A stretch of 64,000 nucleotides of DNA, from IMG/VR virus record IMGVR_UViG_3300042460_000724, positions 32,001 to 96,000 of that record. One strand, given 5' to 3'. This DNA is from a virus. Shown here piece by piece: positions 22,505-42,500 of this stretch; the stretch's first letter is position 1, and each line of letters begins with the position of its first letter. The position numbers and the translations under genes are program-made. The notes under the pieces were generated by a model. That model was not told the origin of the DNA. It saw only the letters and a list, made by a program, of their open reading frames with translations, and did not search any database.

Positions 22505-25500
22505 TTACTTAGTAAACCCGAAGTGATTAAAGCCATTTGATACGGTCACTGCAGAGTAACCAACCGACGTAATTGCCGGTATTAATGGGCGATTGTCGTT
22601 GAATCCCCATTCGTATAATACATTGTTAGGATCTATGACAAAAGTACTATTAAAATTCGCAGATACCTGTGTCCAAGATGATGTACCAATTTGTGTAGGC
22701 ACACTATACATATTAGGAGGAGTATATGCTTGATTAGTGCCTAATTGAACTGGGCTGGATTTAGAGATCCTATCATTTAGACCAAGTTGACCACTAGTAT
22801 TAAGACCCCAAACATAAAGTTTGTTATCATTGCGAGTAGCCATCGATGAATTTATATTGGATCCACCTTTATTTAAATTAGTATATATAGAAGTACCAAG
22901 TTGTACCGGAGCTGATCTAGATAGAATGTCTAATAATCCTAATTGACCATTAGCATTATTACCCCAAGTAAACAAATAGCCATCACTACGTATAGCAAAT
23001 TGACTTGCACCAGTTGTTGAAGTGATAGTCCAAGAATCGGTTGCTGTGGGCAAGAATATTGGACTTAATGCAGATGTTACTGAATTAATTCCCAATTCAC
23101 CATTGGTATTAGTTCCCCAAGTATATAAACCATATAACTGATCTAATCCAATAGTAAATAGACCACCAGCTGAGACCATAGCCCATGAACTTGTACCAAT
23201 TTGTATTGGGCTTGATTTTGAAATTATTGTACTATCCCCTAATTGACCACTAGTACCTAATCCCCATGTAAATAATAAGTTATCGCTACGTACACCAGCC
23301 ATATAGTTTACACCAGAACTAACAGATGTCCAACTAATAGTGCCTAGTTGTACCGGACTACTTCTTAGTATCACATCGTTTGTTCCTAGTTGTCCGCTAG
23401 CATTATTTCCCCAAACATATAATAGTCCATCACTAGTAATGGCTGCTGTTGCAACACTACCGGCTGAAATAATACTCCAGCTATTTGTACCTATTTGCAC
23501 AGGACTACTTCTGCTTAATATAGCATTGTCACCTATTTGACCATTAGTACCAAGTCCCCACATAAATAGTGCACCATCACTACGTATTGCACCACGTGAT
23601 GTATTTTTAGAAATACTTGTCCAAACAGTACCAACGCCAATTTGTACTGGACTACTACGAGAGACTGTATCATTTTGTGCTAATTCACCGTTTGTATTAA
23701 TACCCCAAGCCCATAGTTTATTAGTAGCATCAAGAGCCATAAAGTTTGCAAGACCTGTTGATGAAGATACGGTGGTCCAACTACTTGTACCAACTTGTAC
23801 TGGACTACTACGATGTACTAAATTATTTGATGCTAGTTGTCCTGATGCGTTATCACCCCAAGTAAACAATCCACCGTCAATACGAATAGCGACGGTTGAT
23901 GTAGTAAATAAACCAACAGCAGTCCAAGAGCTTGTGCCAATTTGTACTGGACTGCTACGAGATATTGTATCATTTAGACCTAGTTGTCCACTAGTACCTA
24001 AACCCCACATAAACAATGCACCGTCACTACGAATGGCAGCACTAGTAGACAGTCCAGTTGATATTGTATTCCAGCTTAAGGCTGCAGGTTTGCTTGTAGT
24101 AGTCAAGTATGTCTGTTGTATCTCTGCACTTGTGAATGAATTTACTTGTACTGGACTAGACCTATTAGCAATGGATCTATCTCCTAATTGTCCACTAGCA
24201 TTACCGCCCCAAACATATAATAAATTATTTGTATTAATTGCAGAAGTTGAGCTTTGTCCAGCACTTACTATATTCCAGCTTGTACCAACTTGAACTGGAC
24301 TACTGCGGGATAATACTGTAGTATCTCCAAGTTGTCCTGTAGTATTAATACCCCAAGTAAACAATCTATTATCAGATGTAATTCCACCCACAAAAGTTAC
24401 GCCTGCACTTATTTGTGCCCAACTACTTGCGCCAATTTGTACCGGAGCAGATCGAGATATGATAGTAGTATCACCTATTTGACCACTAGCGTTAAGACCC
24501 CAAGCAAATAACAAGTTATCAATACGTATACCATATGATGTAGTTCCACCTGAGCTTACTGCATTCCATGACTCATTTATTGATCGGATAAATACTGGAC
24601 TACTTCTGGCTCCAAGAGATTCACTTAATCCAAGCTGTCCATTATTATTTTGTCCCCAAATGAAAAGTTGATTATCAGTATAAGTCAACGCCATAGTTAC
24701 TCCAGGAGACGTGCCTATACTAACCTGTGACCAACTGCTTGTACCAATTTGTACTGGACTACTACGAGGTAATATTGTATTGTCTCCTAGTTGACCATTA
24801 GTATTAATACCCCAAGACCAAAGAGTGTTGTCAAGACGTAAGGCAGTGGTTGTAGCAAATCCAGTTGATATAACAGACCAACTGCTTGTACCAATTTGTA
24901 CTGGACTACTACGAGGTAATATTGTATTGTCTCCTAGTTGACCATTAGCATTAATACCCCAAGACCACAGTGTAGAGTTAGTTCGGATAGCCATAGCATA
25001 CGACAGTCCGGCTGACACACTAGACCAACTGCTTGTACCTATTTGTACTGGACTACTGCGTGGCACGATAGTAGTTGATCCTAATTGTCCACTAGTATTA
25101 TCTCCCCAGGAGAAAAGAGCACCATCCAAACGTATAGCATATACACTTACATCTCCGGCACTAACCTTTGTCCAACTACTTGTACCAACTTGTACAGGAC
25201 TACTACGATGTAGTATAGTGCCATCACCTAATTGTCCGGCGTTATTATTACCCCAAGTAAACAATGCACCATCACTACGTATTGCACCAACACAAGCCAG
25301 AGTACTTACAAGAGTTCCTGTTGCAACACTTCCTGAAACTATAGTCCAGCTACTTGTACCAACTTGTACAGGACTACTGCGATGTACTAAGTCATTTTGA
25401 CCTAATTGTCCTATTGTATTTAATCCCCATGACCACAACGTATTATCATTACGGATTGCATACATTGCATTATTGCCTATTGATATCTGAGACCAGCTAG

Positions 25501-28500
25501 TTGTACCCAATTGTATTGGACTATTTGTATTAACAGTCGAATTTTGTCCTAGCTGTCCAAATGAATTAATTCCCCAAGTAAACAATGCTCCGTCACTACG
25601 TATTGCCGCTGAACTCCCAATAGACCCACCTGCATTGATTTTGGTCCAACTGAATCCTGTTTTACCGGTAGCAGTTAAGTAAGTACTTTGTAGAGTGTTA
25701 TTTGTAAATGAACTAATTTGTACTGGGCTACTCTTGTTAGCCACAAACAGTTGACCAAGTTGTCCACTAGCACCTGCACCCCAACCATATAATACGTTGT
25801 CTGCGGTTAATGCTAAAGTTGTAAAGTCGGTTCCTGCTGTTATTCCACCTGCACTAACAGTAGTCCAACTACTTGTACCTATTTGAACTGGGCTACTACG
25901 ATGTAATATAGTGTCATCACCCAAATTACCAACTGCGTTATTACCCCAAGTAAATAGTGCACCATCACTACGTATACCTGCAAAATGTCCGGCTGAGCTA
26001 GATAATGCAGTCCAACTATATGCGGTAAACGTATTAGCGGCAGGGTTACCCCAACCATACAATTTGTTATTTGTCTTTATACCTACATTATGGCTATAAC
26101 CTGCACTAATTTTACTCCATGTATCTCCTGTGATTTGTGTAGGCATTGGTTGGTAGCTAGCAATTTGTACTGGACTAGATTTACTTACTACAGTATTATC
26201 ACCAATAGCGCCGTAGCTAGCACCCGAACCCCAACCATAAAACAATAGATTACCATCGAGCACACCGTAACTATTAGTAGATCCAGTACCAATTATAGAC
26301 CAACTACTTAAACTTACTAATGTTGGGCTAGATGTAGCAACAACAGAGTTAATACCTAATTCTCCGCTGCCGTTACCACCCCAAGTATATAGTAACTTAG
26401 TAGAAGTTAACCCTACCATATGGCTTTGACCAACAGTAATTTGTGACCAGCTACTTGTACCAAGTTGGGTTGCACTACTACGGTGGACTAGATCACCTAA
26501 ACCTAATTGTCCATTAGCATTTTGCCCCCATACAAATAATAAACTATCACTGCGTATTGCAGCCGCAGTGTTTACATTCATTGATACTTGTGACCAAGAC
26601 TCATTAGCAGTACGAATGAACACCGGGCTAGTAGATTGTGTAACAGTATTATTGCCTATTGCACCAACAGCATTTTGCCCCCATACAAATAATTGCCTGC
26701 TTGTGTTATCTATAGCTGCCGTATTAATATATAATCCACTAACCTTATACCAAGTACTAGTACCAATTTGTACCGGACTAGATCGGGAGATAGCAGTACT
26801 ATCTCCTAATTGACCGTTTGTGTTTAGTCCCCAGCCCCATAATGTATTATCACTACGAATAGCAACTGAGTATTGATTACCTGCGTTAACACTTGTCCAA
26901 CTACTAGTACCAATCTGTACTGGACTACTTCTAGGGAGAACATTAGTTAAACCTAAACCACCATTAGTATTAATGCCCCATGACCACAATGTATTATTGT
27001 TTAGTAGTCCTACCATGTGTGAGTAACCAACTGCTATTTGACTCCAACTACCTGCACCAAGTTTTACAGGACTAGATTTACTTACTACGGTATTATCACC
27101 TAACTGTCCGTTTGTATTAATTCCCCAAGTGAATAGTCCGCCGTCACTACGCAATGCGGCAGTTATAGCACCATTAGTACTAACCTGTGTCCAACTACTT
27201 GTACCAACTTGTACAGGACTACTACGAGCTACAAGATCACCTAGTCCTAGTTGACCACTAGCATTAATTCCCCAGGCAAATAAAGCACCACCAAGTCGTA
27301 TTGCAGTTACAGTCGATATCCCTGCCGCAACACTTGTCCAACTACTAGTACCAATCTGTACTGGACTACTGCGTGGCAATACATCAGTTGTACCTAATTG
27401 TCCACTAGTATTTAGACCCCACACAAATAATGCTCCATCGTTACGTATAGCATATGTAGAAAAATCTCCCACTGCTACCTGAGTCCAACTGCTTGTGCCA
27501 ATTTGTACTGGACTACTACGATGGATGATAGTATTATCTCCTACACCGCCGTTGTTATTAGTTCCCCACGTGAATAATGCTCCATCATTACGTATGGCTG
27601 CAGTCATACCATTTACACCACCGGAGCTTATTACAGACCAACTAAATGTTGTTGTTCCAGTTGCAGTTAAATAACTATTTTGCTGTGCAAGAGAATATAT
27701 CGATCCTACTTGGGTTGGACTACTTTTATTGACAGTATCATTTAAACCAAGACCACCGATGCCGTTAATACCCCATGTAAATAACAAACCATCACTACGT
27801 ATACCAGCCATAGTTGTAGCTGCCTTACTATTAATTAAAGTCCAACTACTTGTACCAATTTGTACTGGGCTACTTCTACTAAGTATTGTACTATCCCCTA
27901 GTTGACCACTAGTACCTAATCCCCAAGTCCATAAACTACCATCATTACGTATAGCCCCAAGTCCACCTACTTTACTCCAAGTAGTATCGGTACCAATTTG
28001 AACTGGACTACTGCGGTGGACTAAATCATTTAACCCTAAATATCCGTCAGTGTTGTTACCCCAAGCCCACAATGTACCATCACTGCGTATAGCTGTAGTC
28101 CAAGATGTTTCCGAATTAACCTGTATCCAACTACTAGAACCAACTTGTACTGGACTGCTTCTATGAAATATATCACTCAGTCCTAATTGTCCAGATTCGT
28201 TAGCTCCCCAAGTCCATAAACTACCGTCACTACGAATACCAGTGAATCGTAAATTTTGTCCAGTCAATATTGACCAAGATGTTGGAGAATTAACCGGCAA
28301 TATAAAGTTTGTGGGACTTAATGTTGGATTATATGGCCATTGTTGATATTGTAATCCCCACCCATACAATGTATTATCTGATGCAATAGCAAGTGAATGT
28401 ACGTTGCCAGCACTTATTTGTGACCAACTACTAGTACCAAGTTGTACTGGACTACTACGATGTAATCCCTCATTATTTACCTGATATGAACTATTATTAC

Positions 28501-31500
28501 CCCAGGCAAATAATTTATTAGTACTAGAAATAGCAAGCACGTGACTTATACCTGCACTAACTTGTGACCAACTGCTAGCACCTATTTGTGTTGGGCTATT
28601 TGAGTATGGTGTTGCACCAACTTGTACTGGGCTACTACGATGTTCTAACCAACTACCTGATATAGTTGTTGGATTAAATGCTAATCCTAGTGCTCCATTA
28701 GTGTTATTACCCCATATATATGCTATACCAGTAGTTGTGATTGCATTGGTTATTCCTGAACCGGCAGCACTAACACTTGCCCAGTCGCTATTATTACCTA
28801 TTTGAGTAGGATATGATTTACTAGTTGTAGAATTATCACCCAACTGTCCAAAAGTTGTATTAATTCCCCAAGTAAATAGTTTTCCATCGGATCTAATAGC
28901 TGATGACAAGCTTTGTCCAGCGCCAACGCTAATCCAGGAATCATTCATTGAGCGAATGAATACCGGGCTACTGCGGCTGGTAATTCCTAATATACCCAAT
29001 TCTCCACTAGTACCAAGTCCCCAAGTAAATAATGCGTTACCTGTATCGGCTGCAGTAATACCTAAAATGTTAGTATAGCCAGTTACCATTGTCCAACTAT
29101 TTGCACCAATTTGTACAGGGAATGATTTAGCAACTGTGGTACCATCACCCAATGATCCAGCAGTATTATTTCCCCAAGCAAACAGTAAACCATCACTTCG
29201 TATTCCTGATAATCCTGCAACAACTGTACCAATTGCAGTCCAAGAATCTGCTACTGAACGAATGAATACTGGGCTGGATCTACCGGCAACAACACCATTA
29301 CCAATAACGCCATCCCCACCTGCAGTAGTTCCCCATGTAAACATTTGCCCATTTGCATCAAGTGCGACTATTGCACTACCTGCATTAACGGTAGTCCAAC
29401 TACTTGTACCTGTAGTAAGTGTTGGACTAAAATATGTGTTCACTAGTGAGTTATTACCAAACTGTGCATTAGCTCCACTACCCCACATATATAGTAAATT
29501 ACCACTTATACCGGCTGTGACTGTGCCGCCTGCAGTTACTACACTCCAACTACTTGTACCAATTTGTACAGGACTACTACGATGTTGGGTAGAATCCGGA
29601 GTTCCTAACACACCACTAGTACCTGCACCCCAAGTGAATAATGAACCATCACTGAGAATTGCTACTGTCCATGATAAACCAGATGCTACTGCAGTCCAAC
29701 TGCTACTACCAATTTGTACTGGGCTACTACGATTTAGAGCAGTGCCATCACCTAGTTGTCCAAATGTGTTTACTCCCCATGCATATAATGCGCCAGTAGT
29801 ACGTATAGCATTACTTCTATTATTTGCAGAATAAACTTTTGACCATGTGTTTTCAGTACCGATTTGTACTGGACTACTACGAGCTACTACTGTGTTTAAT
29901 CCCAGTTGACCTACATCATTAGCACCCCAACTCCATAATGTACCATCACTACGAACCGCTAATACTGTACCGCCGGTAGTGTTAAACGGTCCTGTTGCAA
30001 CAGCAGTCCAACTACTTGTACCAACTTGTACCGGGCTACTACGATGAGCCTGTGTACCATCACCTACAGTACCTGCAGTGTTAACTCCCCAAGTCCATAA
30101 TGTATTATCACTACGTATGGCAGCCGTGAATGATGCTCCTGCTGATACTGTCAACCAGCTATTAGTACCAACTTGTACAGGACTACTACGATGCACTATG
30201 TCATTTAGACCTAATGCGCCATTGATGTTATTACCCCATGCAAACAATAAGCCGTCATTACGAATAGCAAACATTGTATTATTGGTATTTACCACAGTAG
30301 ACCAACTGTAACCAGTCTTACTTGTCTTTGTCAAATATGCCTGTTGTTCTGCAGGTGAAGAGAACGAAACAATTTGTACAGGGCTATTACGAGCAACTAC
30401 AGTTCTATCCCCTAATGCACCACCTGAACCAGAACCCCACGTGTACAATGTATTGTTAGCCATTATACCTGCTGTTGTACCAGATGCTTGTGTAGCAACA
30501 ATATTCCAATTACTTGTACCAAGTTGTACAGGGCTACTGCGTGAAATTGAGTCACCGATGCCAAGCTCACCGGCTGTATTTAATCCCCATGCAAATAATT
30601 TACTATCAGTTCGTATTGCAAATGTGCTGTTACCATTTGCTGTTACTAATGTCCAGCTGTTACCCGTACCTACTTGTACTGGGCTACTTCTAGCGATAAT
30701 ATCGTTTACTCCAAGATTACCAGAACCATTGACTCCCCAACCATATAATTTTCCATCCAACGTAATAGCAAAGGTAGATGTAGCGTTAGTTGTACTATTA
30801 GATGGTACAACTGACCAACTACTTGTGCCTAGTTGAACTGGGCTACTACGATGTACTAAATCATTTAGACCAAGTTGACCATTAAAATTGCCACCCCAAA
30901 CAAATAATAGTCCGTCACTTCTAATAGCGTAAGTATGGCTTATGCCAGCAGCAATACCACTCCAATTACTTGTTCCTATTTGTACCGGACTACTTCTGTG
31001 TAGAATATCATTTAAACCAAGTTGTCCGATACTGTTAGTTCCCCATGCAAATAACTTACTATCGCTACGAATAGCAAATGAAGTAGATGCACCTGCGGTT
31101 ACTGTAGTCCAACTCAATGTTCTAGGTTTACCTGTACTAGTTGACCAAGCAATTTCATCAGCTAATGTAATTAGTGATGAAATTATTACAGGTAATAAGA
31201 TTGTTCCTGGAGCATTACCTGTACCCAATTGACCATTATCATTATTGCCCCAACCGTATAAAACATTGTCCATGGTTAAAGCTAATGTATGAGTAGAGCC
31301 GGTGCTTATCATAGTCCAGCTACTTGTACCAACTTGTACTGGACTTGATTTTAGTATGACGGTGTTGTCCCCCAATTGACCAACATCATTATTACCCCAT
31401 GACCATAATGTTTTATCATTACGAATGGCCGCGGTAAATGTATCACCCTGTGCAACTTGGTACCAAGTATTAATAGTTGCATTTACTTGCACTGGGCTAC

Positions 31501-34500
31501 TAGTATCTACTACACTGTTAATACCTAATTCACCGACTGTATTACCGCCCCATGCGTATAAATACCCATTACCATTAGTGTAGTCCTGTATTATTCCCAT
31601 GCGTCCAGCAACCATAGTCCAACTACTTGAACCAATTTGTACTGGACTAGATTTATTTACAATTGAGTTGTCACCTAATCCACCATACGTATTATTACCC
31701 CAAGTAAATAAGGCTCCATCACTTCTTATTGCAGAAACAACGTATGCATTTCCAATATCACCAGATTGTCCTGCACTAACCATAATCCAGCTACTTGTAC
31801 CAACCTGTACTGGACTACTGCGATGTACTGTGTCATTAAGGCCCAATTGTCCTTGGCTATTAAGTCCCCATGACCACAAATAATTATTAGTGTCAATACT
31901 AAAAGCATTACCGAAGCCTGCCGCTAGTTGTTTCCAACTACCGGTACCTATTTGTACTGGACTACTTCTATTAATACCATCATTCTCTCCTAACTCCCCT
32001 ACGGTATTTTTACCCCATGACCACAATGTTCCATCTAATCGTATACCATAGGACGATGAATCCAATCCTGACACCGCTGAGGTCCAAAGTAAATTACCAA
32101 TCTGTACTGGACTACTACGAGCTACAACAGTATTATCTCCTATTTGTCCTGAATTATTGAAACCCCAAGCCCATAACGTACCATCAATACGTATAGCGAT
32201 GGGAGTTAGTCTTCCAGCAGAAACCATATTCCAGCTACTTGTACCAACCTGTACAGGACTACTTCTGAGAAGACCACTAACGTTTGCACCTAATGCACCT
32301 AATGAATTATCAGTTCCCCATGACCAAAGTGATTTGTCACTACTACGTATAGCAAATAAAAATCCTTGTCCAGCACTAACCATAGTCCAACTACTAGTAC
32401 CAATCTGCACAGGGCTACTACGATGTATTTGATTATTTGTACCTAATTGACCGTATGTATTACTACCCCAAGACCATAAACTACCATCACTTCTTATGCC
32501 TGCCGCAGTTTGTGTGCCATCTACTGGCATACTAGATCCTGATAGATATGTCCAACTTAATAAATCTTTACCTAACTGTATTGGTTGGGATCTATTTATA
32601 ACATTATTTTGTCCTAATTGACCACTAGTCCCTAGACCCCAAAGCCAAAGTGTATTATCATTACGTATACCAGCGACATGGTTTGAGTTAAAACTTCCTT
32701 CACCTATACTTGTCCAAGAATCATTCATAGAGCGAATGAATACAGGTGTAGACATAGTTACCATGTTACCGTCACCTATTTGGCCGTCAGTACCAATACC
32801 CCAAGTATATAATTGACCGGCTGAAGTAATACCCATACCGCCTGATGACCCAGCCGGTACTATAGTCCAACTACTAGTAGTAACTTGTAATGGTAATGAT
32901 TGGTTACCTGGGTTGCCACCTAACGCACCAAATCCATTATATCCCCATCTAAATAACAAACCATCACTACGCACAGCTCCATATTCATCTGTACCTGAAC
33001 TTACATAAGTCCATGAATCAAATATACCTGCACGAATAAATACTGGGCTAGAACGTTGCAATATAGTATTATCACCTACACCACCTTGTGTGTTGCCTGC
33101 CCAAGTAAACAACACACCGTTACTATCTATTGCAGTAGCTCCATTAACAAAAGTCCAACTACTACTACCTATTAGTACTGGGCTGTTTTTATTAGCAGTT
33201 GTATTATCACCCAATTCGCCGTTAGTATTTAAACCCCAAGCAAACAATGCACCATCATTACGTATTCCATACATAGTAGATGTCCAACTGTTGACATAAT
33301 TCCATGTATTAGTTCCAACTTGTACGGGACTGCTACGATGCACTGAACTGGCTGCCCCTAATTGACCAGACCCATTAGCCCCCCAAGTAAACAATGCACC
33401 ATTACTACTTATAGCACCAGTGAATGACCCGCCTAACGCAACCATAGTCCAACTACTTGTGCCTAGTTGAACTGGGCTACTACGAGCTACTGCATCATTA
33501 AATCCTAACTGCCCCAGTGTATTATCACCCCATATAAATAAAGCACCGTCTGTTCGTATGGCAGCTAAATTTGTACCAAAATTAGTGCCGCTTGCTACCA
33601 TAGTCCAACTACTACTACCAACTTGTACCGGACTACTTCGATTTACTGCGTCATTTAGTCCTAATTGGCCTACTGTATTAGCTCCCCAAGCCCATAAACC
33701 ACCGCCACTTTTAATAGCGGCCATCGGTCCTATGGATGATCCGGATGCTAGTTTTATCCAATCAGTATCAGTACCGACCTGTACCGGGCTACTGCGATGT
33801 ATTTGATTATTTTGTCCTAATGAACCTTCATCATTACGACCCCATGTCCATAATGTTCCATCTATTTTGATTGCGGCTGCATATGATGTGCCTCCAGCAA
33901 TTGCAGCCCAACTACTTGTACCGATTTGCACAGGGCTACTACGATGTACTAAATCATTTAGACCTAATTGTCCTATAGTATTTTGTCCCCATGAAAATAA
34001 CAATCCATCACTACGTAATGCCAATCTAGTATTACTACCTGTAGTAAATGTCAAATTGGCTACAGTAGTCCAACTAAGCGGTGTTACTCCTATGGTAGTT
34101 AAATATGTTTGTTGTTGTGCTGATGTTCTAATTGAAGTTATTTGTACTGGACTACTTTTGTTTATCCCCAGTCCTTCACCAAGATAGGTACCTGTGCCCC
34201 AAGAATACAACGCACCATCTGTAGTTATTCCCATTGTGACACTTGTTCCACTAGTGACCATAGTCCAACTACTTGTACCAATTTGTATTGGGCTAGATTT
34301 TGCAACTAATGTGGTGTCACCCAATTGACCATTAGTATTAACACCCCACGTAAATAAGTTACCTGTAGTAGTTATGGCGGCGGTCATGCCAGAACCAGCA
34401 CTGACCATAGTCCAACTACTTGTGCCTAGTTGAACTGGACTACTGCGATGTACACCAACGTCATTGAGACCTAATTGTCCATTAGTGTTATTTCCCCAAA

Positions 34501-35659
34501 CCCATAATGCACCGTTTGTGTCTATGGCAGCAACGTTATCCTGACTAACCGCACCGTTAGTTATTACTTTACTCCAAATAGTAGCGGTACCAACTTGTAC
34601 TGGACTACTTCTATTAATAATGTTATTTGATCCCAACTGCCCGGCTGCATTATACCCCCATGACCACAAAGTATTGTCTGCTCGTATTGCAAGTGTAGCA
34701 AATCCGTTAGCAGATACGCTAGACCAACTGCTAGTACCAACTTGTACTGGGCTACTACGTCTAACAATATCATTTAATCCCAAATTACCATAAGTATTAA
34801 GTCCCCAAGCAAATAATGCACCATCATTTCTTATAGCAAACATTGACCATGCGGCACCATACGATACTGCTGTCCAACTAAGTTGTGTAGTAGCTATACT
34901 AGATACATATGACTGTTGGATTTGAACTGAAGTTAATGAACCAGTTAAGGTAGGGCTTGAAAGATTATTTGTATTATTATTACCTCCTTGCCCTTGACCA
35001 GCACTACCCCATACCCACAGTGTACTATCAGAACGTAGTGCTGTGCGTGTTGTTCCGCCACTTCCGCCTAATGCAGACCAAGTACTTGTACCAATTTGTA
35101 CTGGACTACTGCGATGTACTGTGTCATTAAGGCCCAATTGTCCTTGGCTATTAATACCACCGATAGCCCACATTGTACCATCAGATTCTATACCTATAGT
35201 ATTTCCGGCCAGTACTTGAGTCCAACTGTTTGCCGCCCAAGATGATAACATACTATTATTACCAAGTTGACCGTTAAACCCTAATCCCCAAGCAAACATT
35301 AATCCATCATTATTAATAGCATAAGAAGTATCACCGTTAGTACTAACCGCACTCCAATTATTAACACCTATCTGTACTGGGCTACTACGATGTGCTAATG
35401 TAAGATCATTATTGCCTAATTGACCATATGTATTGGCGCCCCATCCAAATAGTTTACCGTCACTACGAATACCTATAGTATGACTTAATCCACTTGCAAC
35501 TTGGCTCCATGATTGTGTACCGATTAATACTGGACTAGATTTAAAAACTGTATTTTCTGTTCCGAGTTGACCCCAAGTGTTGTCACCGAACATATATAAT
35601 GATTCAATATCACCGCCGGTTGATGGTTGGACTGTTAATAACCATTTTTCTAATAACAT
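22505..35659 (-). CDS. Giant RCC1/BLIP-II repeat protein, 84 blades in 12 nested 7-blade propellers; probable virion appendage
   Basis: ~50-aa repeat W..VSAG...AIRSDG.LF.WG.N..GQLG......SSPVQIGTSS, counted by hand; follows fibre chaperone gene. Confidence 0.9.
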   Translation of the reverse strand: MLLEKWLLTVQPSTGGDIESLYMFGDNTWGQLGTENTVFKSSPVLIGTQSWSQVASGLSHTIGIRSDGKLFGWGANTYGQLGNNDLTLAHRSSPVQIGVNNWSAVSTNGDTSYAINNDGLMFAWGLGFNGQLGNNSMLSSWAANSWTQVLAGNTIGIESDGTMWAIGGINSQGQLGLNDTVHRSSPVQIGTSTWSALGGSGGTTRTALRSDSTLWVWGSAGQGQGGNNNTNNLSSPTLTGSLTSVQIQQSYVSSIATTQLSWTAVSYGAAWSMFAIRNDGALFAWGLNTYGNLGLNDIVRRSSPVQVGTSSWSSVSANGFATLAIRADNTLWSWGYNAAGQLGSNNIINRSSPVQVGTATIWSKVITNGAVSQDNVAAIDTNGALWVWGNNTNGQLGLNDVGVHRSSPVQLGTSSWTMVSAGSGMTAAITTTGNLFTWGVNTNGQLGDTTLVAKSSPIQIGTSSWTMVTSGTSVTMGITTDGALYSWGTGTYLGEGLGINKSSPVQITSIRTSAQQQTYLTTIGVTPLSWTTVANLTFTTGSNTRLALRSDGLLFSWGQNTIGQLGLNDLVHRSSPVQIGTSSWAAIAGGTSYAAAIKIDGTLWTWGRNDEGSLGQNNQIHRSSPVQVGTDTDWIKLASGSSIGPMAAIKSGGGLWAWGANTVGQLGLNDAVNRSSPVQVGSSSWTMVASGTNFGTNLAAIRTDGALFIWGDNTLGQLGFNDAVARSSPVQLGTSSWTMVALGGSFTGAISSNGALFTWGANGSGQLGAASSVHRSSPVQVGTNTWNYVNSWTSTMYGIRNDGALFAWGLNTNGELGDNTTANKNSPVLIGSSSWTFVNGATAIDSNGVLFTWAGNTQGGVGDNTILQRSSPVFIRAGIFDSWTYVSSGTDEYGAVRSDGLLFRWGYNGFGALGGNPGNQSLPLQVTTSSWTIVPAGSSGGMGITSAGQLYTWGIGTDGQIGDGNMVTMSTPVFIRSMNDSWTSIGEGSFNSNHVAGIRNDNTLWLWGLGTSGQLGQNNVINRSQPIQLGKDLLSWTYLSGSSMPVDGTQTAAGIRSDGSLWSWGSNTYGQLGTNNQIHRSSPVQIGTSSWTMVSAGQGFLFAIRSSDKSLWSWGTDNSLGALGANVSGLLRSSPVQVGTSSWNMVSAGRLTPIAIRIDGTLWAWGFNNSGQIGDNTVVARSSPVQIGNLLWTSAVSGLDSSSYGIRLDGTLWSWGKNTVGELGENDGINRSSPVQIGTGSWKQLAAGFGNAFSIDTNNYLWSWGLNSQGQLGLNDTVHRSSPVQVGTSSWIMVSAGQSGDIGNAYVVSAIRSDGALFTWGNNTYGGLGDNSIVNKSSPVQIGSSSWTMVAGRMGIIQDYTNGNGYLYAWGGNTVGELGINSVVDTSSPVQVNATINTWYQVAQGDTFTAAIRNDKTLWSWGNNDVGQLGDNTVILKSSPVQVGTSSWTMISTGSTHTLALTMDNVLYGWGNNDNGQLGTGNAPGTILLPVIISSLITLADEIAWSTSTGKPRTLSWTTVTAGASTSFAIRSDSKLFAWGTNSIGQLGLNDILHRSSPVQIGTSNWSGIAAGISHTYAIRSDGLLFVWGGNFNGQLGLNDLVHRSSPVQLGTSSWSVVPSNSTTNATSTFAITLDGKLYGWGVNGSGNLGVNDIIARSSPVQVGTGNSWTLVTANGNSTFAIRTDSKLFAWGLNTAGELGIGDSISRSSPVQLGTSNWNIVATQASGTTAGIMANNTLYTWGSGSGGALGDRTVVARNSPVQIVSFSSPAEQQAYLTKTSKTGYSWSTVVNTNNTMFAIRNDGLLFAWGNNINGALGLNDIVHRSSPVQVGTNSWLTVSAGASFTAAIRSDNTLWTWGVNTAGTVGDGTQAHRSSPVQVGTSSWTAVATGPFNTTGGTVLAVRSDGTLWSWGANDVGQLGLNTVVARSSPVQIGTENTWSKVYSANNRSNAIRTTGALYAWGVNTFGQLGDGTALNRSSPVQIGSSSWTAVASGLSWTVAILSDGSLFTWGAGTSGVLGTPDSTQHRSSPVQIGTSSWSVVTAGGTVTAGISGNLLYMWGSGANAQFGNNSLVNTYFSPTLTTGTSSWTTVNAGSAIVALDANGQMFTWGTTAGGDGVIGNGVVAGRSSPVFIRSVADSWTAIGTVVAGLSGIRSDGLLFAWGNNTAGSLGDGTTVAKSFPVQIGANSWTMVTGYTNILGITAADTGNALFTWGLGTSGELGILGITSRSSPVFIRSMNDSWISVGAGQSLSSAIRSDGKLFTWGINTTFGQLGDNSTTSKSYPTQIGNNSDWASVSAAGSGITNAITTTGIAYIWGNNTNGALGLAFNPTTISGSWLEHRSSPVQVGATPYSNSPTQIGASSWSQVSAGISHVLAISSTNKLFAWGNNSSYQVNNEGLHRSSPVQLGTSSWSQISAGNVHSLAIASDNTLYGWGLQYQQWPYNPTLSPTNFILPVNSPTSWSILTGQNLRFTGIRSDGSLWTWGANESGQLGLSDIFHRSSPVQVGSSSWIQVNSETSWTTAIRSDGTLWAWGNNTDGYLGLNDLVHRSSPVQIGTDTTWSKVGGLGAIRNDGSLWTWGLGTSGQLGDSTILSRSSPVQIGTSSWTLINSKAATTMAGIRSDGLLFTWGINGIGGLGLNDTVNKSSPTQVGSIYSLAQQNSYLTATGTTTFSWSVISSGGVNGMTAAIRNDGALFTWGTNNNGGVGDNTIIHRSSPVQIGTSSWTQVAVGDFSTYAIRNDGALFVWGLNTSGQLGTTDVLPRSSPVQIGTSSWTSVAAGISTVTAIRLGGALFAWGINASGQLGLGDLVARSSPVQVGTSSWTQVSTNGAITAALRSDGGLFTWGINTNGQLGDNTVVSKSSPVKLGAGSWSQIAVGYSHMVGLLNNNTLWSWGINTNGGLGLTNVLPRSSPVQIGTSSWTSVNAGNQYSVAIRSDNTLWGWGLNTNGQLGDSTAISRSSPVQIGTSTWYKVSGLYINTAAIDNTSRQLFVWGQNAVGAIGNNTVTQSTSPVFIRTANESWSQVSMNVNTAAAIRSDSLLFVWGQNANGQLGLGDLVHRSSATQLGTSSWSQITVGQSHMVGLTSTKLLYTWGGNGSGELGINSVVATSSPTLVSLSSWSIIGTGSTNSYGVLDGNLLFYGWGSGASYGAIGDNTVVSKSSPVQIASYQPMPTQITGDTWSKISAGYSHNVGIKTNNKLYGWGNPAANTFTAYSWTALSSSAGHFAGIRSDGALFTWGNNAVGNLGDDTILHRSSPVQIGTSSWTTVSAGGITAGTDFTTLALTADNVLYGWGAGASGQLGQLFVANKSSPVQISSFTNNTLQSTYLTATGKTGFSWTKINAGGSIGSSAAIRSDGALFTWGINSFGQLGQNSTVNTNSPIQLGTTSWSQISIGNNAMYAIRNDNTLWSWGLNTIGQLGQNDLVHRSSPVQVGTSSWTIVSGSVATGTLVSTLACVGAIRSDGALFTWGNNNAGQLGDGTILHRSSPVQVGTSSWTKVSAGDVSVYAIRLDGALFSWGDNTSGQLGSTTIVPRSSPVQIGTSSWSSVSAGLSYAMAIRTNSTLWSWGINANGQLGDNTILPRSSPVQIGTSSWSVISTGFATTTALRLDNTLWSWGINTNGQLGDNTILPRSSPVQIGTSSWSQVSIGTSPGVTMALTYTDNQLFIWGQNNNGQLGLSESLGARSSPVFIRSINESWNAVSSGGTTSYGIRIDNLLFAWGLNASGQIGDTTIISRSAPVQIGASSWAQISAGVTFVGGITSDNRLFTWGINTTGQLGDTTVLSRSSPVQVGTSWNIVSAGQSSTSAINTNNLLYVWGGNASGQLGDRSIANRSSPVQVNSFTSAEIQQTYLTTTSKPAALSWNTISTGLSTSAAIRSDGALFMWGLGTSGQLGLNDTISRSSPVQIGTSSWTAVGLFTTSTVAIRIDGGLFTWGDNASGQLASNNLVHRSSPVQVGTSSWTTVSSSTGLANFMALDATNKLWAWGINTNGELAQNDTVSRSSPVQIGVGTVWTSISKNTSRGAIRSDGALFMWGLGTNGQIGDNAILSRSSPVQIGTNSWSIISAGSVATAAITSDGLLYVWGNNASGQLGTNDVILRSSPVQLGTISWTSVSSGVNYMAGVRSDNLLFTWGLGTSGQLGDSTIISKSSPIQIGTSSWAMVSAGGLFTIGLDQLYGLYTWGTNTNGELGINSVTSALSPIFLPTATDSWTITSTTGASQFAIRSDGYLFTWGNNANGQLGLLDILSRSAPVQLGTSIYTNLNKGGSNINSSMATRNDNKLYVWGLNTSGQLGLNDRISKSSPVQLGTNQAYTPPNMYSVPTQIGTSSWTQVSANFNSTFVIDPNNVLYEWGFNDNRPLIPAITSVGYSAVTVSNGFNHFGFTK
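24729..24967. repeat. 92-nt direct repeat, one mismatch, period 147 nt (one blade)
   Basis: 24729-24820 versus 24876-24967. Confidence 0.85.
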
Positions 35660-35662
35660 ATT

Positions 35663-36172
35663 TTAACCACCAAACATAGGCCAAATAATATTAAAAGGAT
35701 CTGTCTGCGTAGTAATATCTGCTAATGCTTGCATATATGCATCCATTAATGTTAAATCATCTACAGTGGGTTCACCTAATCTAAGTTGTCTATCATATCG
35801 AGTGTATCGCCATTCAAAATCTTTCATCTTTGTATCACGTTCACCTCTTATCAAATTCCATTGATCTCTAGTACGTAGTTCTTGTTGTAGCTGTATATCT
35901 TCAGGCGAGGGTTCGTATATCACTGATTTAGGTAGCTCAATAATATCCATTGTTTCATACGCAACACCATCAGTAAAATACTGTCTAGGATTATCTATTT
36001 TTTGTGTTTCTGGATTATATTCAGGGTATGCTTTTACTAATGTATACCAACCAAATGATAAACGTTCTTCTTCTGTAAGTGCATAAAAATTACTGATATT
36101 TTTCCAATTATTTGGAATAAGGTCGTATACACCTTCTATATTACCGTCAACAATATGAGCATAATTAGCCAT
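35663..36172 (-). CDS. Tail fibre assembly chaperone
   Basis: 'QWNLIRGERD...YMQALADITTQTDPFNIIWP'; ATG 36172 coupled to upstream stop. Confidence 0.75.
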   Translation of the reverse strand: MANYAHIVDGNIEGVYDLIPNNWKNISNFYALTEEERLSFGWYTLVKAYPEYNPETQKIDNPRQYFTDGVAYETMDIIELPKSVIYEPSPEDIQLQQELRTRDQWNLIRGERDTKMKDFEWRYTRYDRQLRLGEPTVDDLTLMDAYMQALADITTQTDPFNIIWPMFGG

Positions 36173-36564
36173 TATAAATTTTGTCCTGAAACAAATGCCT
36201 GCCAATTTATACCACCATCAGTAGTAAAAAAGGTGAATACATCTTCTTTGTTATTACTTGATGTTAATGTAGGAGCAGTTCCTCCTGGCCAGTGAAAGCT
36301 AGCAGGCCAAGTAACTGAACGAGCAGTACCATCAGCAGTGAAAACTAGTACAAATGAACTTGCTCTACCTGCTGATTGTATGTTAGAGAATGTGATAGAT
36401 GTGATGTTAGAATTTAAAGCGACATTGAATACAGTAGCGATATTTAAATTTAGTGTTAAAACGCCGGCACTAATAGTAGCAGTCGCACTAACTTCTGCTG
36501 AATTGTTTGGTAAAAATACCTTATTGTCGTCAATTACGGTCGACCCGATTACTTTAATTGCCAT
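36172..36564 (-). CDS. Small fibre/adaptor protein
   Basis: All-beta 130 aa, 'VTWPASFHWPGGTAPTLT...DVFTFFTTDGG..W' phage fibre domain. Confidence 0.6.
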   Translation of the reverse strand: MAIKVIGSTVIDDNKVFLPNNSAEVSATATISAGVLTLNLNIATVFNVALNSNITSITFSNIQSAGRASSFVLVFTADGTARSVTWPASFHWPGGTAPTLTSSNNKEDVFTFFTTDGGINWQAFVSGQNL

Positions 36565-39548: not shown

Positions 39549-42500
39549 TTAATATATCGGGAATGCACTTGTTGGTGGTGTGAAGTTACTTGTATAACGA
39601 GCATAACCTTTTGTTATTCTTAAATCGTCTATGTAGCCAGTGTAATAAAAATTACCGCCTACCATTTCATACCCAACTACTGCACCATTTTGAATAAAGC
39701 TGGTACTATTAGTTGTTGATCCATTTAAAATCCCGTTTTGATAGATTGCCAGTGTAGTTCCGGATCGAACAACAGCAATGTGTGTCCAAGTGGTAAGAGA
39801 TATTGCGTTAGTTGCTAATAAAAGTTGAGTAGTTTCATTGGTTACTCTTACTTTATTTGCATTACTAATTTGTATATGAAGGGCGTCTCCTGTACCAGTT
39901 GTTGATGAAATAAACATTGCGCCAAAATTTTGATTTGTTGTAAGGTATAGCCAACCTTCAATTGTAAAATCTCCAGTGCCAAAAGCATATAGTGGATTTG
40001 ATCGTAAACTTAAATAATCCCCGGTACCATCAAAATACATACTACTCCCACCGAATTTACTTATTGCTGTACTTAGTTGTGCATTACCAACTGTTTCCAT
40101 GTTATTCATCATTGCGGCATCGTATATACCAGCACTGGTCATATTAGTTAGTAGACTTGTGTTTTGTACTGCGGTTAAGGGTGCAGATGGTGGTACAAAG
40201 TTACTGGTGTAAACTGCTGTACCCCTAACAATTCTTACATCTGACATATAACCTAAGGTAAAACCGCTACTACCGCCTCTTGAACCTATATATACTGGTC
40301 TTGTAGCATCTCCTAATGTTCCGGAGAAAGTTAATGGAGTACCCACTGATACTCCGTCAATGTATAATGAGCAAGTTGTCCCCGATCTAACTGCGGCAAC
40401 ATGGTACCATCTATTTGCAACTGGAGTGGGCCCATTAACATATGATGCAGCACTACTCGGATAATATTGAAATGACGGGGCTATAAGAATAGTCCAATCA
40501 GGAGCCGCACTTGATACATAATTTGCAACTAAATCCTGTACACCAGCAACACTTGTAAAATATATCCAAAATTCTATAGTATAATTACCTGTGAATTGAA
40601 ATGCTGGATTTGCAGGTACACTCAAAGTATCTCCAGTACCATCAAAGTACCCACTACCGCCTATTGTACTAACCGTATAGCCATTTGTAGTTGCACTAGT
40701 AAACCCGAATGGATTTTGTTGAGTTGGTTGACTATTACCAAATGCAGTGATTGTAAAGTTGTTTGTACTGTTATCTATAAATGTAGGTGATTGACATGTC
40801 AATAAACTTGTATTGGCAATTGCAGTTAGTGGACTTGTTGGAGGAGTAAATGCACCTGTGTATACTGCGGTACCTTTAACAATACGAATGTTTGACAAAT
40901 AGCCAATGATTGGATATACAGCATCAACTGTAAGACCAATTCGTAATGACCCAGTTGGACTTATGTTTGTTGAATTTGTAGTGCTTAATCCACTTACACC
41001 ATTTACATAGATAGATAAATTTGTTCCAGATCTAACTATAGCAACATGATTCCAAGCATTAATATTTATAGCAATACTGCTGGTTAAATCTGAGGTAATT
41101 AAAATATAAGGTTGATTACTAGAGTTAATAAGACATGCCCATGGACTTGCTGTTCCTGATGTTCTAGTATCCAAAACTGTTCTATAACTTCCGGATACTG
41201 TTTGATAAATCCAATATTCAATTGTAAAATCACCAGTACCAAATTGATATGCCGCGTTTGCAGGAGCAGTTAAATAATCCCCACTACCATCAAAATAACC
41301 ACTATAACTTGTTGGGGTCAATGATGATGGATTGAATGGTGAGAAACGCTGTACCGAAACATCACCGTTCTTTGTGATAGTAAAGTTGTTTATACTAGTA
41401 TCTATTATACGATTACTTTGGCAGGTTAATAAACTTGTATTTGTGATAGGTGTTAGTGGTGTTGTGCTGGGTGTAAATGTAGTTGTATATAGTATTGATT
41501 TGGTAACTCTAAAGTTACTGATATAACCATTAAATGAGCCATCACCGCCGGCATTGATTGTGCCTATGTCAAAATTTGAACCAGCAGAATATCCACCGGC
41601 ATATGTCCCGGAAGCATTTAAAGTTCCGTTAATAAAAACTTTGATATTGCCGCTACTGAATGTGCAAGCAAAATGTTGCCATTGATTTGCTGTAACTGTA
41701 AATGTGGGATTATCACTGCCAGCCACTTTGCCAATTCTATTAGCAGGCCAGTTTCTCATAATGTCCCCTTCATTGGGCCCGCCATCAAATAACCCAATTA
41801 CTGTGCTAGATAAAGGATATATCCAACATTCAATGGTAACATCACCGCTAGCAGTTAAAACCCCTGCTCCTGCTTTTCTTATATAATCACTAGCACCATC
41901 AAAGTAGTTACTCCAGTTACCACCATAAGGACTAAATGTACCTTGAGTAGTATTACCCGCTCTTGTTACTAAAAAGTTATTTGTACTGTTATCTAAGAAA
42001 ACACTATTATTTACTGATTGATTGTTTTGTAATACTAATAAACTTGTATTTGCTATTGCTGTTAATGGAGCAGAGGGTGGAGTGAAATCTGTAGTATAAA
42101 CACCTGTGCCTATTACAAACCTCATATCTGATAGATATCCAACAATACCGCCTGACCCACTGGAACTAACGCCTATATAAACTGCTGAAGCATTGTATGT
42201 TCCTGTACTTGCCGACGAGTACCCAGAAACACCATTAATAAACATTTTTAATGTTCCTGCGGTACGACTGATAGCAACATGATTCCAGGTATTAACAGTA
42301 ACTGTATTTGTTGTAGCAATATCAACCGGTAAATAAAAATGAACTGTGCCGTTGGCGGCAATATATATCTGCCCAAATATTGCAGTAACACTTGATCTGA
42401 AATCAATAATCGCTGGCGTATTGGCCAATGTTGTTGGATATACCCAAAAGTCAATAGTAAAAGCACCTGTACCAAATTGTGCTGAATTTATTGGTACATC

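What the first reader, a model, noticed from the sequence alone, without database searches (positions are those of the whole stretch)
23030..34930. Dedicated branch-joint module: helical entry linker, FIRS exit and an altered blade after each exit
Seen: seven secondary branches (C,D,F,G,I,K,L) use a ~20-aa entry linker (mostly Q-Q/x-x-Y-L-T; F is divergent) and an exit in which consensus PVQIG becomes PVFIR or PIFLP. In all seven, the parent blade right after the exit departs from the SSP consensus (SLP, SQP, SFP, SYP, SSA, SAP, SAP). After branch E, which lacks these linkers, SSP is intact. This marker was not used in the parse, so it supports it independently. Inference: a rigid joint in which a helix packs on the exit Phe and the neighbouring parent blade. 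Primary branches B, H and J instead insert mid-repeat in the GQLG loop, and the parent's PTQI..W resumes afterwards.
Basis: partly seen in the sequence, partly recalled or inferred. Interest (0 to 1): 0.8.

Follow-up and report, generated by a model that had tools for sequence, protein, structure and literature searches.

The report
Conserved joints linking nested RCC1 propellers
A 4384-residue phage protein made of 84 RCC1 blades carries seven matched pairs of a 19-20-residue "entry" linker and a Phe-bearing "exit" strand, each pair bracketing exactly seven blades; this looks like a reusable joint for inserting one beta-propeller into another, but its 3D form is not yet shown.

Summary
One ORF (window 22505-35659, minus strand, 4384 aa) consists almost entirely of RCC1 repeats.

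- **Motifs.** It has exactly seven entry linkers and seven PVFIR/PIFLP exits, in the order (())(())()()().
- **Blade counts.** Each pair encloses seven blades once inner inserts are removed.
- **Altered head.** The next parent head after every exit departs from SSP (7/7, against 4/76 elsewhere, p = 8e-8).
- **Conservation.** Three same-length orthologues (62-70% identity) keep all 14 sites. Homologues at about 40% identity (P0108, P0037) use the same grammar.
- **Natural deletion.** P0007 lacks child L exactly from linker to exit. It has an ordinary GT-SSW junction there, and SSP where the others have SAP.

By the RCC1 blade definition, each child is seven whole blades (strand A to strand D, no velcro) inserted in the parent's D-to-A inter-blade link. 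The three primary branches sit in the C-to-D (GQLG) loop.

The structural inference is only partly supported. Two AlphaFold runs call the linker helical, but at pLDDT of about 50. No coordinates were available, so contacts could not be measured. The confident 14-blade model seems to close nine consecutive blades into one ring rather than reproduce the nesting.

The same ORF was noted several times earlier in this scan, on this genome only.

The parts
22505..35659 (-). Giant RCC1-repeat gene, 4384 aa, 84 blades (12 groups of seven)
   Evidence: identical 4384-aa cluster with 16 members and same-length orthologues in other metagenomes
34874..34960 (-). Entry C: head SSPTLTGS + linker LTSVQIQQSYVSSIATTQL + SW (aa 234-262)
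   Evidence: (37 bits)
34070..34156 (-). Entry D: SSPVQITS + IRTSAQQQTYLTTIGVTPL + SW (aa 502-530)
   Evidence: (47 bits); DSSP helix aa 513-522 at low pLDDT
31109..31198 (-). Entry F (divergent): LLPVIISS + LITLADEIAWSTSTGKPRTL + SW (aa 1488-1517)
   Evidence: (40 bits); 83% of columns invariant in 4 orthologues
30302..30388 (-). Entry G: NSPVQIVS + FSSPAEQQAYLTKTSKTGY + SW (aa 1758-1786)
   Evidence: (54 bits)
27638..27724 (-). Entry I: SSPTQVGS + IYSLAQQNSYLTATGTTTF + SW (aa 2646-2674)
   Evidence: (45 bits)
25646..25732 (-). Entry K: SSPVQISS + FTNNTLQSTYLTATGKTGF + SW (aa 3310-3338)
   Evidence: (52 bits)
24071..24160 (-). Entry L: SSPVQVNS + FTSAEIQQTYLTTTSKPAAL + SW (aa 3834-3863)
   Evidence: (47 bits); whole child absent in P0007
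33011..33052 (-). Exit D: SSPVFIRAGIFDSW (aa 870-883)
32714..32752 (-). Exit C: STPVFIRSMNDSW (aa 970-982)
29240..29278 (-). Exit G: SSPVFIRSVADSW (aa 2128-2140)
28934..28972 (-). Exit F: SSPVFIRSMNDSW (aa 2230-2242)
26594..26632 (-). Exit I: TSPVFIRTANESW (aa 3010-3022)
24566..24604 (-). Exit K: SSPVFIRSINESW (aa 3686-3698)
23030..23068 (-). Exit L: LSPIFLPTATDSW (aa 4198-4210)
32876..32899 (-). Altered parent head after exit D: SLPLQVTT (aa 921-928); TLP/TFP/TIP in orthologues
32567..32590 (-). Altered head after exit C: SQPIQLGK (aa 1024-1031); SQP in all orthologues and P0007
29102..29125 (-). Altered head after exit G: SFPVQIGA (aa 2179-2186)
28793..28816 (-). Altered head after exit F: SYPTQIGN (aa 2282-2289)
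26456..26479 (-). Altered head after exit I: SSATQLGT (aa 3061-3068); weakest case, SSP in P0003, P0004 and P0007
24428..24451 (-). Altered head after exit K: SAPVQIGA (aa 3737-3744)
22892..22915 (-). Altered head after exit L: SAPVQLGT (aa 4249-4256); SSP in P0007, which lacks child L
28571..28636 (-). Trunk-type return after B/E: SSPVQVGA-TPYSN-SPTQIG (aa 2342-2363)
26117..26179 (-). Trunk-type return after H: SSPVQIAS-YQPM-PTQITGDTW (aa 3161-3181)
22673..22759 (-). Trunk-type return after J: SSPVQLGTN-QAYTPPNMYSV-PTQIGTSSW (aa 4301-4329)

Best explanation
The entry linker, the exit strand and the altered next head together form a conserved junction for inserting a complete seven-bladed RCC1 propeller into the link between two blades of another RCC1 propeller.

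The RCC1 blade runs A = SW..VS.G (at the central tunnel), B = ..AIR, C = .L..WG, then the GQLG loop, then D = SSPVQI (short, on the surface). Read this way, every child starts at strand A of its first blade and ends at strand D of its seventh. It is therefore a ring of whole blades with no velcro strand exchange.

The parent's normal three-residue D-to-A turn (G-T-S) is opened. Parent strand D leads through a fixed 19-20-residue linker into child strand A1. That linker has a hydrophobic first residue, a Q-rich stretch and an invariant Tyr/Trp followed by Leu-Thr. Child strand D7 has Gln replaced by Phe, followed by a connector two residues longer than normal that ends in Asp/Glu-Ser-Trp. It leads straight into the parent's next strand A.

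Both connections replace a tight turn, so the four chain ends must meet in one small region. I infer that the linker, probably a short helix, and the exit aromatic residue bury the seam between the child's first and last blades, taking the place of the missing velcro. I also infer that the altered residue on the surface strand of the parent's next blade adapts that blade to its new neighbour.

Shown: the grammar, its pairing, the 7-blade arithmetic, the conservation, and the link between the altered head and the presence of a child.

Inferred: the helix, the contacts, the rigidity, and the nested 3D closure itself.
For: - **Motif counts and separation.** Exactly 7 entries and 7 exits, cleanly separated from all other junctions.
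- **Order and arithmetic.** The order is ()() in four orthologues. Blade counts are C, D, F, G, H, I, J, K, L = 7 each, the linker-less B+E region = 14, and the trunk = 7.
- **Conservation.** All 14 sites are kept at 62-70% identity. Linkers are as conserved as folded blades (0.56 against 0.49 invariant columns). Aromatic Y/W is 28/28, the exit Phe 28/28 and D/E 27/28.
- **Altered post-exit heads.** 7/7 here (p = 8e-8); 25/28 across the orthologues; 5/6 in P0007; 3/3 in P0108 and 1/2 in P0037.
- **Natural experiment.** P0007 lacks child L precisely from linker to exit. It has SSPVQVGT-SSW and then SSP.
- **Distant homologue.** P0108 (about 40% identity) is a three-level nest with blade sums 7/7/7 and a 5+[7]+2 layout like C(D) and F(G).
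- **Blade definition.** The strand order and the 2+2 velcro of RCC1-like domains come from PMC8773251 and PMC10830417. The trunk's N-terminus (SLYMFGD..SSPVLIG) and C-terminus (YSAVTVS..NHFGFTK) fit that 2+2 closure.
- **Register.** The discontinuous C and F align in register with the contiguous D and G. First blades match first blades and last match last (shift 0, z = 4.4-5.2).
- **AlphaFold.** All 14 blades of C(D), including C6-C7, have pLDDT 79-96. The only helices in either run lie in the entry linkers, apart from two 3-residue helical turns in run 2.
Against: - The confident AlphaFold model does not clearly show the parent closing around the child. RCC1-like domains superpose with rmsd 4.7-6.2 A. 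Their ranges run from D1 to C7. The best non-RCC1 matches are 8- and 9-bladed propellers over nine consecutive blades.
- Linker pLDDT is 48-56 and pTM is 0.62, so neither a rigid joint nor a fixed helix is supported.
- No coordinates were available, so no contact was measured.
- The Phe is replaceable in some homologues. The altered head is absent at 5 of 39 joints examined.
- Much of the paralogue similarity could reflect copying of whole sub-trees.
Confidence: 0.6

Rival explanations
1. The motifs are real domain boundaries of a nested architecture but act as a flexible tether or hinge, not a packed rigid joint. The conserved residues would serve folding order or solubility rather than a fixed interface.
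For: Linker pLDDT is 48-56 and pTM 0.62 in an otherwise confident model. The linker is rich in Ser, Thr and Gln.
Against: Linker length is fixed at 19-20 aa across 7 paralogues and 4 orthologues. The aromatic residue is invariant. Conservation equals that of folded blades. The exit connector is only two residues longer than a tight turn, which leaves little slack. The linker columns of the alignment used for folding were thin, so low pLDDT is weak evidence.
Confidence: 0.22
2. The pattern is only a footprint of history. One child with its flanks was copied repeatedly, so the linker, the exit and the altered neighbouring head travel together without any joint-specific function.
For: C(D) and F(G) share the 5+[7]+2 layout and the SMNDSW exits. 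First and last blades of children resemble each other.
Against: The altered residue differs between joints (L, Q, F, Y, A), yet each is conserved in orthologues. The grammar persists at about 40% identity in P0108 and P0037. Where the child is absent in P0007, both the junction and the next head are consensus. Insertion sites differ (after blade 2, 4 or 5), so the flanks were not simply copied.
Confidence: 0.1
3. The propellers are not nested. The linkers are ordinary inter-domain linkers and the rings are formed by consecutive blades, for example 5 + 9 as the AlphaFold model seems to suggest.
For: VIA-align ranges, the high rmsd to RCC1-like domains, and the preference for 8-9-bladed propellers over D1-D7+C6-C7.
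Against: Consecutive segments between linkers would be 2, 5, 19, 5, 11, 2, 4, 10, 1, 2, 10 and 9 blades, which are not workable ring sizes. With exits as closing brackets, every group is 7. The precise loss of 7 blades plus linker plus exit in P0007 leaves J as 7 blades. The folding alignment consisted of 70 tandem-type homologues, which biases the model towards consecutive rings.
Confidence: 0.08

Closest known systems
Interrupted RCC1-like domain of UBR5 (PDB 8p82; PMC10830417)
   Same: It is an RCC1-like seven-bladed propeller with 2+2 closure that tolerates large inserts. One insert of more than 220 residues lies between the fifth and sixth blades. UBR5 is the only listed match to C1-C5 of the model (Z 13.7, rmsd 4.1 A, 206 residues aligned).
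   Different: The UBR5 inserts are unrelated folds (UBA, dSBB). They are not further RCC1 propellers, are not recursive, and have no described entry/exit motif pair.
Integrin alpha I domain inserted in the alpha-subunit beta-propeller (PMC12422189; insertion site from my own knowledge)
   Same: A whole autonomous domain is inserted in a loop of a seven-bladed propeller, with its N and C termini adjacent.
   Different: The propeller family is different. The insert is a vWA fold, at a single level, and it functions in allosteric signalling.
Canonical RCC1-like domains: RCC1, UVR8, HERC2 RLD1-3, RPGR
   Same: The same repeat family (Pfam PF00415 and PF25390) and the best structural matches (Z 23-32). 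The trunk propeller appears to keep the 2+2 velcro.
   Different: Known proteins have one to three separate RLDs arranged in tandem. Here the children lack velcro and are inserted inside other RLDs, up to three or four levels deep.
Alsin RLD with a disordered insertion inside blade 5 (PMC8773251)
   Same: An RLD split by a 300-residue insert. The paper also gives the strand order used here.
   Different: The insert is disordered and lies within a blade, between strands B and C, not between blades.
Multi-propeller proteins with shared or swapped closure strands (DDB1, Aip1/WDR1, EML TAPE domain; from my own knowledge, not tested here)
   Same: Several propellers in one chain whose rings are not simply consecutive in sequence.
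   Different: They are WD40-type. Only one strand or blade is exchanged, and no complete propeller sits in an inter-blade link. There is no recursion.

Membership tests
RCC1 / RCC1-like domain (RLD) superfamily | Significant match to the RCC1 repeat and RLD profiles | tested here: met
   PF00415 with 67 stretches (1632 bits) and PF25390 with 21 stretches (2121 bits)
RCC1 / RCC1-like domain (RLD) superfamily | Seven blades per propeller | tested here: inconclusive
   Sequence arithmetic gives 7 for every bracketed group. The AlphaFold model appears to form a wider ring: rmsd 4.7-6.2 A to RLDs, with 8-9-bladed best non-RCC1 matches.
RCC1 / RCC1-like domain (RLD) superfamily | Fold similarity to solved RLDs | tested here: met
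   UVR8 Z 32.3 (rmsd 5.3 A, 315 aligned), HERC2 RLD3 Z 31.5 (4.9 A, 311), RPGR Z 29.7, RCC1 Z 23-25
RCC1 / RCC1-like domain (RLD) superfamily | 2+2 velcro closure (N-terminal strands C and D with C-terminal strands A and B) | tested here: inconclusive
   The trunk termini have the right strand types (definition). The seven children begin at strand A and end at strand D, so by sequence they lack velcro. No structure of the trunk was made.
RCC1 / RCC1-like domain (RLD) superfamily | Guanine-nucleotide exchange or another known RLD activity | not testable with these tools
The phage tail-gene context argues for a structural or adhesive role.
Nested (discontinuous) domain insertion | Insert is a complete domain bounded by two junctions at one site of the parent | tested here: met
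   Each entry/exit pair brackets 7 blades. Child L is precisely absent in P0007, which has an ordinary junction there.
Nested (discontinuous) domain insertion | Parent segments before and after the insert fold into one domain | tested here: inconclusive
   Parent blade sums are 7, and C and F align in register with D and G. The AlphaFold model with VIA-align does not show this closure.
Phage tail fibre / baseplate proteins | Homology to known tail or baseplate families, or virion location | not tested
   Only the neighbours were scanned. These are a 966-aa protein with a baseplate-wedge/tail-fibre C-terminus, a small protein resembling a tail-fibre assembly protein, and two proteins of 1548 and 1620 aa that match baseplate-wedge and virion-structural PHROGs. 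The giant protein itself was not scanned against PHROGs.

The most novel reading that the evidence does not exclude
The entry linker and aromatic exit form a portable 'plug' that substitutes for velcro closure. It lets a complete RCC1 propeller be inserted into any inter-blade turn of another, recursively. A single chain can then fold into a branched tree of twelve propellers. That would be a protein architecture class not described for any fold, evolved in jumbo-phage virion proteins, and directly usable as a design rule for dendritic repeat proteins.
Probability: 0.45. Interest if true: 0.8.

Novelty: new variant of a known kind. Interest (0 to 1): 0.62.

Why it matters
Domain insertion into propeller loops is known, and tandem RCC1-like domains are known. 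A conserved, paired junction that lets a propeller be inserted into a propeller of the same family, repeatedly and to several levels, was not found in the literature searched.

If the joint is a defined structural element, three things follow:
- It explains how rings without velcro strands stay closed.
- It gives a sequence rule for parsing other giant repeat proteins that ordinary domain callers read as a featureless string of repeats.
- It offers protein designers a natural connector for branched assemblies of repeat domains.

It also suggests how a phage could pack twelve potential binding modules into a compact, multivalent virion appendage.

Tried and rejected
- **First AlphaFold run.** Aa 139-1240 (B+C+D, 5-row orthologue alignment A1) failed, with mean pLDDT 37 and pTM 0.31. 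Only its secondary-structure call was used.
- Sub-regions of the orthologues could therefore not be given as alignment rows. The folding alignment had to rely on tandem-type homologues of 716-1289 aa, which probably biased the model.
- **VIA-align** (pdb_via and pdb_via_wide). Rows are filled by one ring, so parent closure could not be read off.
- **BFVD Foldseek**. Multi-propeller phage RCC1 proteins align only with rmsd 20-40 A, so no comparable two-propeller arrangement was found.
- **Phage megablast.** The flanking 9 kb gave no match against the phage collection.
- **Viral-contig scan**. It returned only relatives at 33-44% identity, and only 6 long ORF pieces were usable.
- **Regex survey.** A regex survey of post-exit heads in 120 giants was noisy, with false 'DGA' hits. 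Hand-checked counts are used instead.
- **Blade similarity.** Blade-by-blade similarity did not resolve where B ends and E begins.
- **Whole-library search** with the entry profile. 173 hits, but only P0034, P0007 and P0108 match the whole linker. The rest are ordinary SSPVQIGSLTxW heads.
Full report
**What is there**

The finding lies inside one ORF on the minus strand, window 22505-35659, encoding 4384 aa.
- Pfam reads it as RCC1 throughout: PF00415 with 67 stretches and the whole-domain model PF25390 with 21 stretches.
- The contig is an IMG/VR viral record of 110 kb, estimated about 31% complete.
- The upstream neighbours match PHROGs for baseplate wedge, tail fibre, tail-fibre assembly and virion structural proteins. 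The setting is therefore the tail-gene region of a large phage.
- The gene is not an assembly artefact. An identical 4384-aa cluster has 16 members. Three orthologues of 4367-4388 aa come from other metagenomes, and a 4048-aa relative (P0007) also exists.

**Checking the observation**

I built a 49-position HMM from the protein's own repeats and cut the chain into units.
- The exit pattern P[VI]F[IL][RP] occurs exactly seven times.
- Seven junctions have a head of the form SSPxxxxS, then a 19-20-residue linker, then xSW.
- HMMs of the entry and exit windows separate the seven true sites from everything else by more than 24 bits.
- The order along the chain is ()().
- After each exit, the next head of the resumed parent is SLP, SQP, SFP, SYP, SSA, SAP, SAP. 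Elsewhere only 4 of 76 heads differ at position 2 or 3 (p = 7.9e-8). Eight of the eleven other non-SSP heads belong to entry, exit or trunk-return junctions.

The last altered head falls just outside the stated coordinates. The 'branch E' control carries no weight, because E cannot be placed among ten consecutive blades that have no linker.

**Arithmetic of the brackets**

I labelled blades by the innermost bracket that contains them. This gives 7 blades each for C, D, F, G, H, I, J, K and L. The linker-less region that must hold B and E has 14, and the trunk has 7 counting the split terminal blade.

Parents are split 5+2 (C, F), 4+3 (H) and 2+3+2 (J).

If only linkers were boundaries, the consecutive segments would be 2, 5, 19, 5, 11, 2, 4, 10, 1, 2, 10 and 9 blades. 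Those do not make sensible rings.

**Where the joints sit in the fold**

Two papers give the RCC1-like blade as follows (PMC8773251; PMC10830417):
- strand A faces the tunnel;
- the VyxWG strand is third;
- a short fourth strand lies on the surface;
- closure is 2+2.

Mapped onto this repeat: A = SW..VS.G, B = ..AIR, C = .L..WG, then the GQLG loop, then D = SSPVQI.

Each child therefore begins at strand A and ends at strand D. It is seven whole blades with no velcro, placed in the parent's D-to-A turn, which is normally G-T-S. The exit connector is only two residues longer than that turn.

The three primary branches instead follow WG and return to a PTQI strand. They occupy the C-to-D loop.

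The trunk's termini have the strand types expected for 2+2 closure.

Both connections of a secondary joint replace one tight turn, so entry and exit must lie close together. This is inference from topology, not a measured contact.

**Conservation and comparative tests**

- P0003, P0004 and P0005 (62-70% identical) keep all 14 sites.
- The entry aromatic residue is Y or W in 28/28, the exit Phe is 28/28, and the acidic residue before SW is 27/28.
- Linkers have 0.56 invariant columns, against 0.49 for the whole protein. That is unlike a free tether.
- Post-exit heads are altered in 25/28 orthologous joints.

The best test is natural. P0007 lacks child L exactly from the first linker residue to the end of the exit connector. 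At that site it has SSPVQVGT-SSW, and the next head is SSP where the other four proteins have SAP.

More distant proteins use variant forms of the same grammar:
- P0108 is a three-level nest with blade sums 7/7/7, a 5+[7]+2 middle propeller and post-exit heads SVP, SNP, SAP.
- P0037 has two levels with sums 7/7 and post-exit heads SSP, STP.
- In these proteins, and at one P0007 joint, the Phe can be missing while another aromatic residue appears in the connector.

The module is rare. Only 12 of 120 giant homologues carry it, and none of 120 mid-size homologues has a full-length match. Only three representatives in a 1.84-billion-protein library match the full linker.

**Structure prediction**

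Run 1 covered aa 139-1240 with five rows and failed (pLDDT 37). Its only helices fell in two entry linkers.

Run 2 covered C(D), aa 242-980, with 76 rows. Mean pLDDT was 87.1 and pTM 0.62.
- All 14 blades are confident, including C6-C7.
- The exit scores about 79-93.
- The D entry linker scores 48-56, although it is called helical (aa 513-522).

No coordinates reach the script box, so the proposed Tyr-Leu, Phe-Ile-Arg and altered-residue contacts could not be measured.

VIA-align gives RCC1-like domains Z 23-32, but with rmsd 4.7-6.2 A and ranges that run from D1 into C7. The best non-RCC1 matches are proteins that, from my own knowledge and not checked here, are mostly eight-bladed propellers (Sif2, ODA16, Cdc4/Fbw7, Ika8, DPP4), plus the nine-bladed eIF3b named as such in the match title. 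They span nine consecutive blades.

My reading is that the model joined the nine blades after the linker into one wide ring. The run therefore does not confirm nesting and, taken at face value, disagrees with it.

I give it less weight than the arithmetic and the P0007 deletion.

As a weaker check, C and F align in register with the contiguous D and G. First blades match first blades and last match last (z = 4.4-5.2).

**Explanation**

The most likely reading (about 0.6) is a dedicated D-to-A crossover junction. In it, a structured linker and an aromatic exit strand cap the seam of a velcro-less child ring, and the neighbouring parent strand adapts to the child.

The rivals are:
- a flexible tether (0.22);
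- a pure duplication footprint (0.10);
- non-nested rings (0.08).

**Comparison with known systems**

The closest documented case is UBR5's interrupted RLD, which carries foreign domains in blade 2 and between blades 5 and 6. Integrin alpha I-domain insertion and Alsin's split RLD are looser analogues.

None of these involves a propeller of the same family, a paired motif, or recursion. Four literature searches found no description of nested propellers.

I class the finding as a new variant of a known kind: domain insertion in an RLD. Interest is 0.62. The sequence grammar is solid and unusual, but the structural mechanism is unproven.

This scan had already noted the same ORF several times on this genome. 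It was not noted on other DNA.

Noticed in passing
window 28637-35230 (aa 144-2341), outside C, D, F, G: Fourteen blades (X1-X14) must form two propellers (B and E), but no linker separates them. A tandem split (7+7, with F inserted after blade 5 of the second) and several nested splits all fit the sequence equally well.
   Followed up: partly
P0108 aa 1130-1367; P0089 aa 629-856 and 1073-1310: Non-propeller domains of about 230 residues sit at the same D-to-A inter-blade junction in distant giant homologues, without the entry linker. The precomputed Pfam lists for these proteins include PF13385. The junction looks like a general insertion hot spot.
   Followed up: no
P0034 (2605 aa, on an 8979-bp contig): The entry/exit order is )((()))((, which looks like a permuted or chimeric fragment of an orthologue. 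This is probably repeat-driven mis-assembly. It nevertheless serves as the 50%-identity representative in the large library.
   Followed up: no
model m21ac501cfc2d (aa 242-980): A confident AlphaFold model (pLDDT 87) matches propellers that I recall as eight-bladed, and the nine-bladed eIF3b, better in rmsd than seven-bladed WD40 propellers. It matches RCC1-like domains only at rmsd of about 5 A. This suggests a ring of the wrong size built from consecutive blades.
   Followed up: partly
window 39549-44195 (-) and 57192-62054 (-): Two large paralogous proteins (1548 and 1620 aa) each carry about six repeats matching the same PHROGs (24074, 3545, 13163 baseplate wedge, 8510 virion structural). 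The 1931-aa ORF at 51363-57158 has no PHROG match.
   Followed up: no
homologue searches: RCC1 proteins of about 1100 aa (21 blades) and about 740 aa (14 blades) are very common in metagenomes: 7088 hits at E <= 1e-20 among 8000 candidates. More than 860 proteins of 2400-7600 aa exist, some of which also list LamG-type Pfam families among their precomputed domains. Most lack this joint.
   Followed up: partly
window 35663-36205 (-): A 180-aa ORF immediately upstream of the giant gene has a weak match to a tail-fibre assembly PHROG (E 1.6e-7). It may be a chaperone for the giant protein.
   Followed up: no
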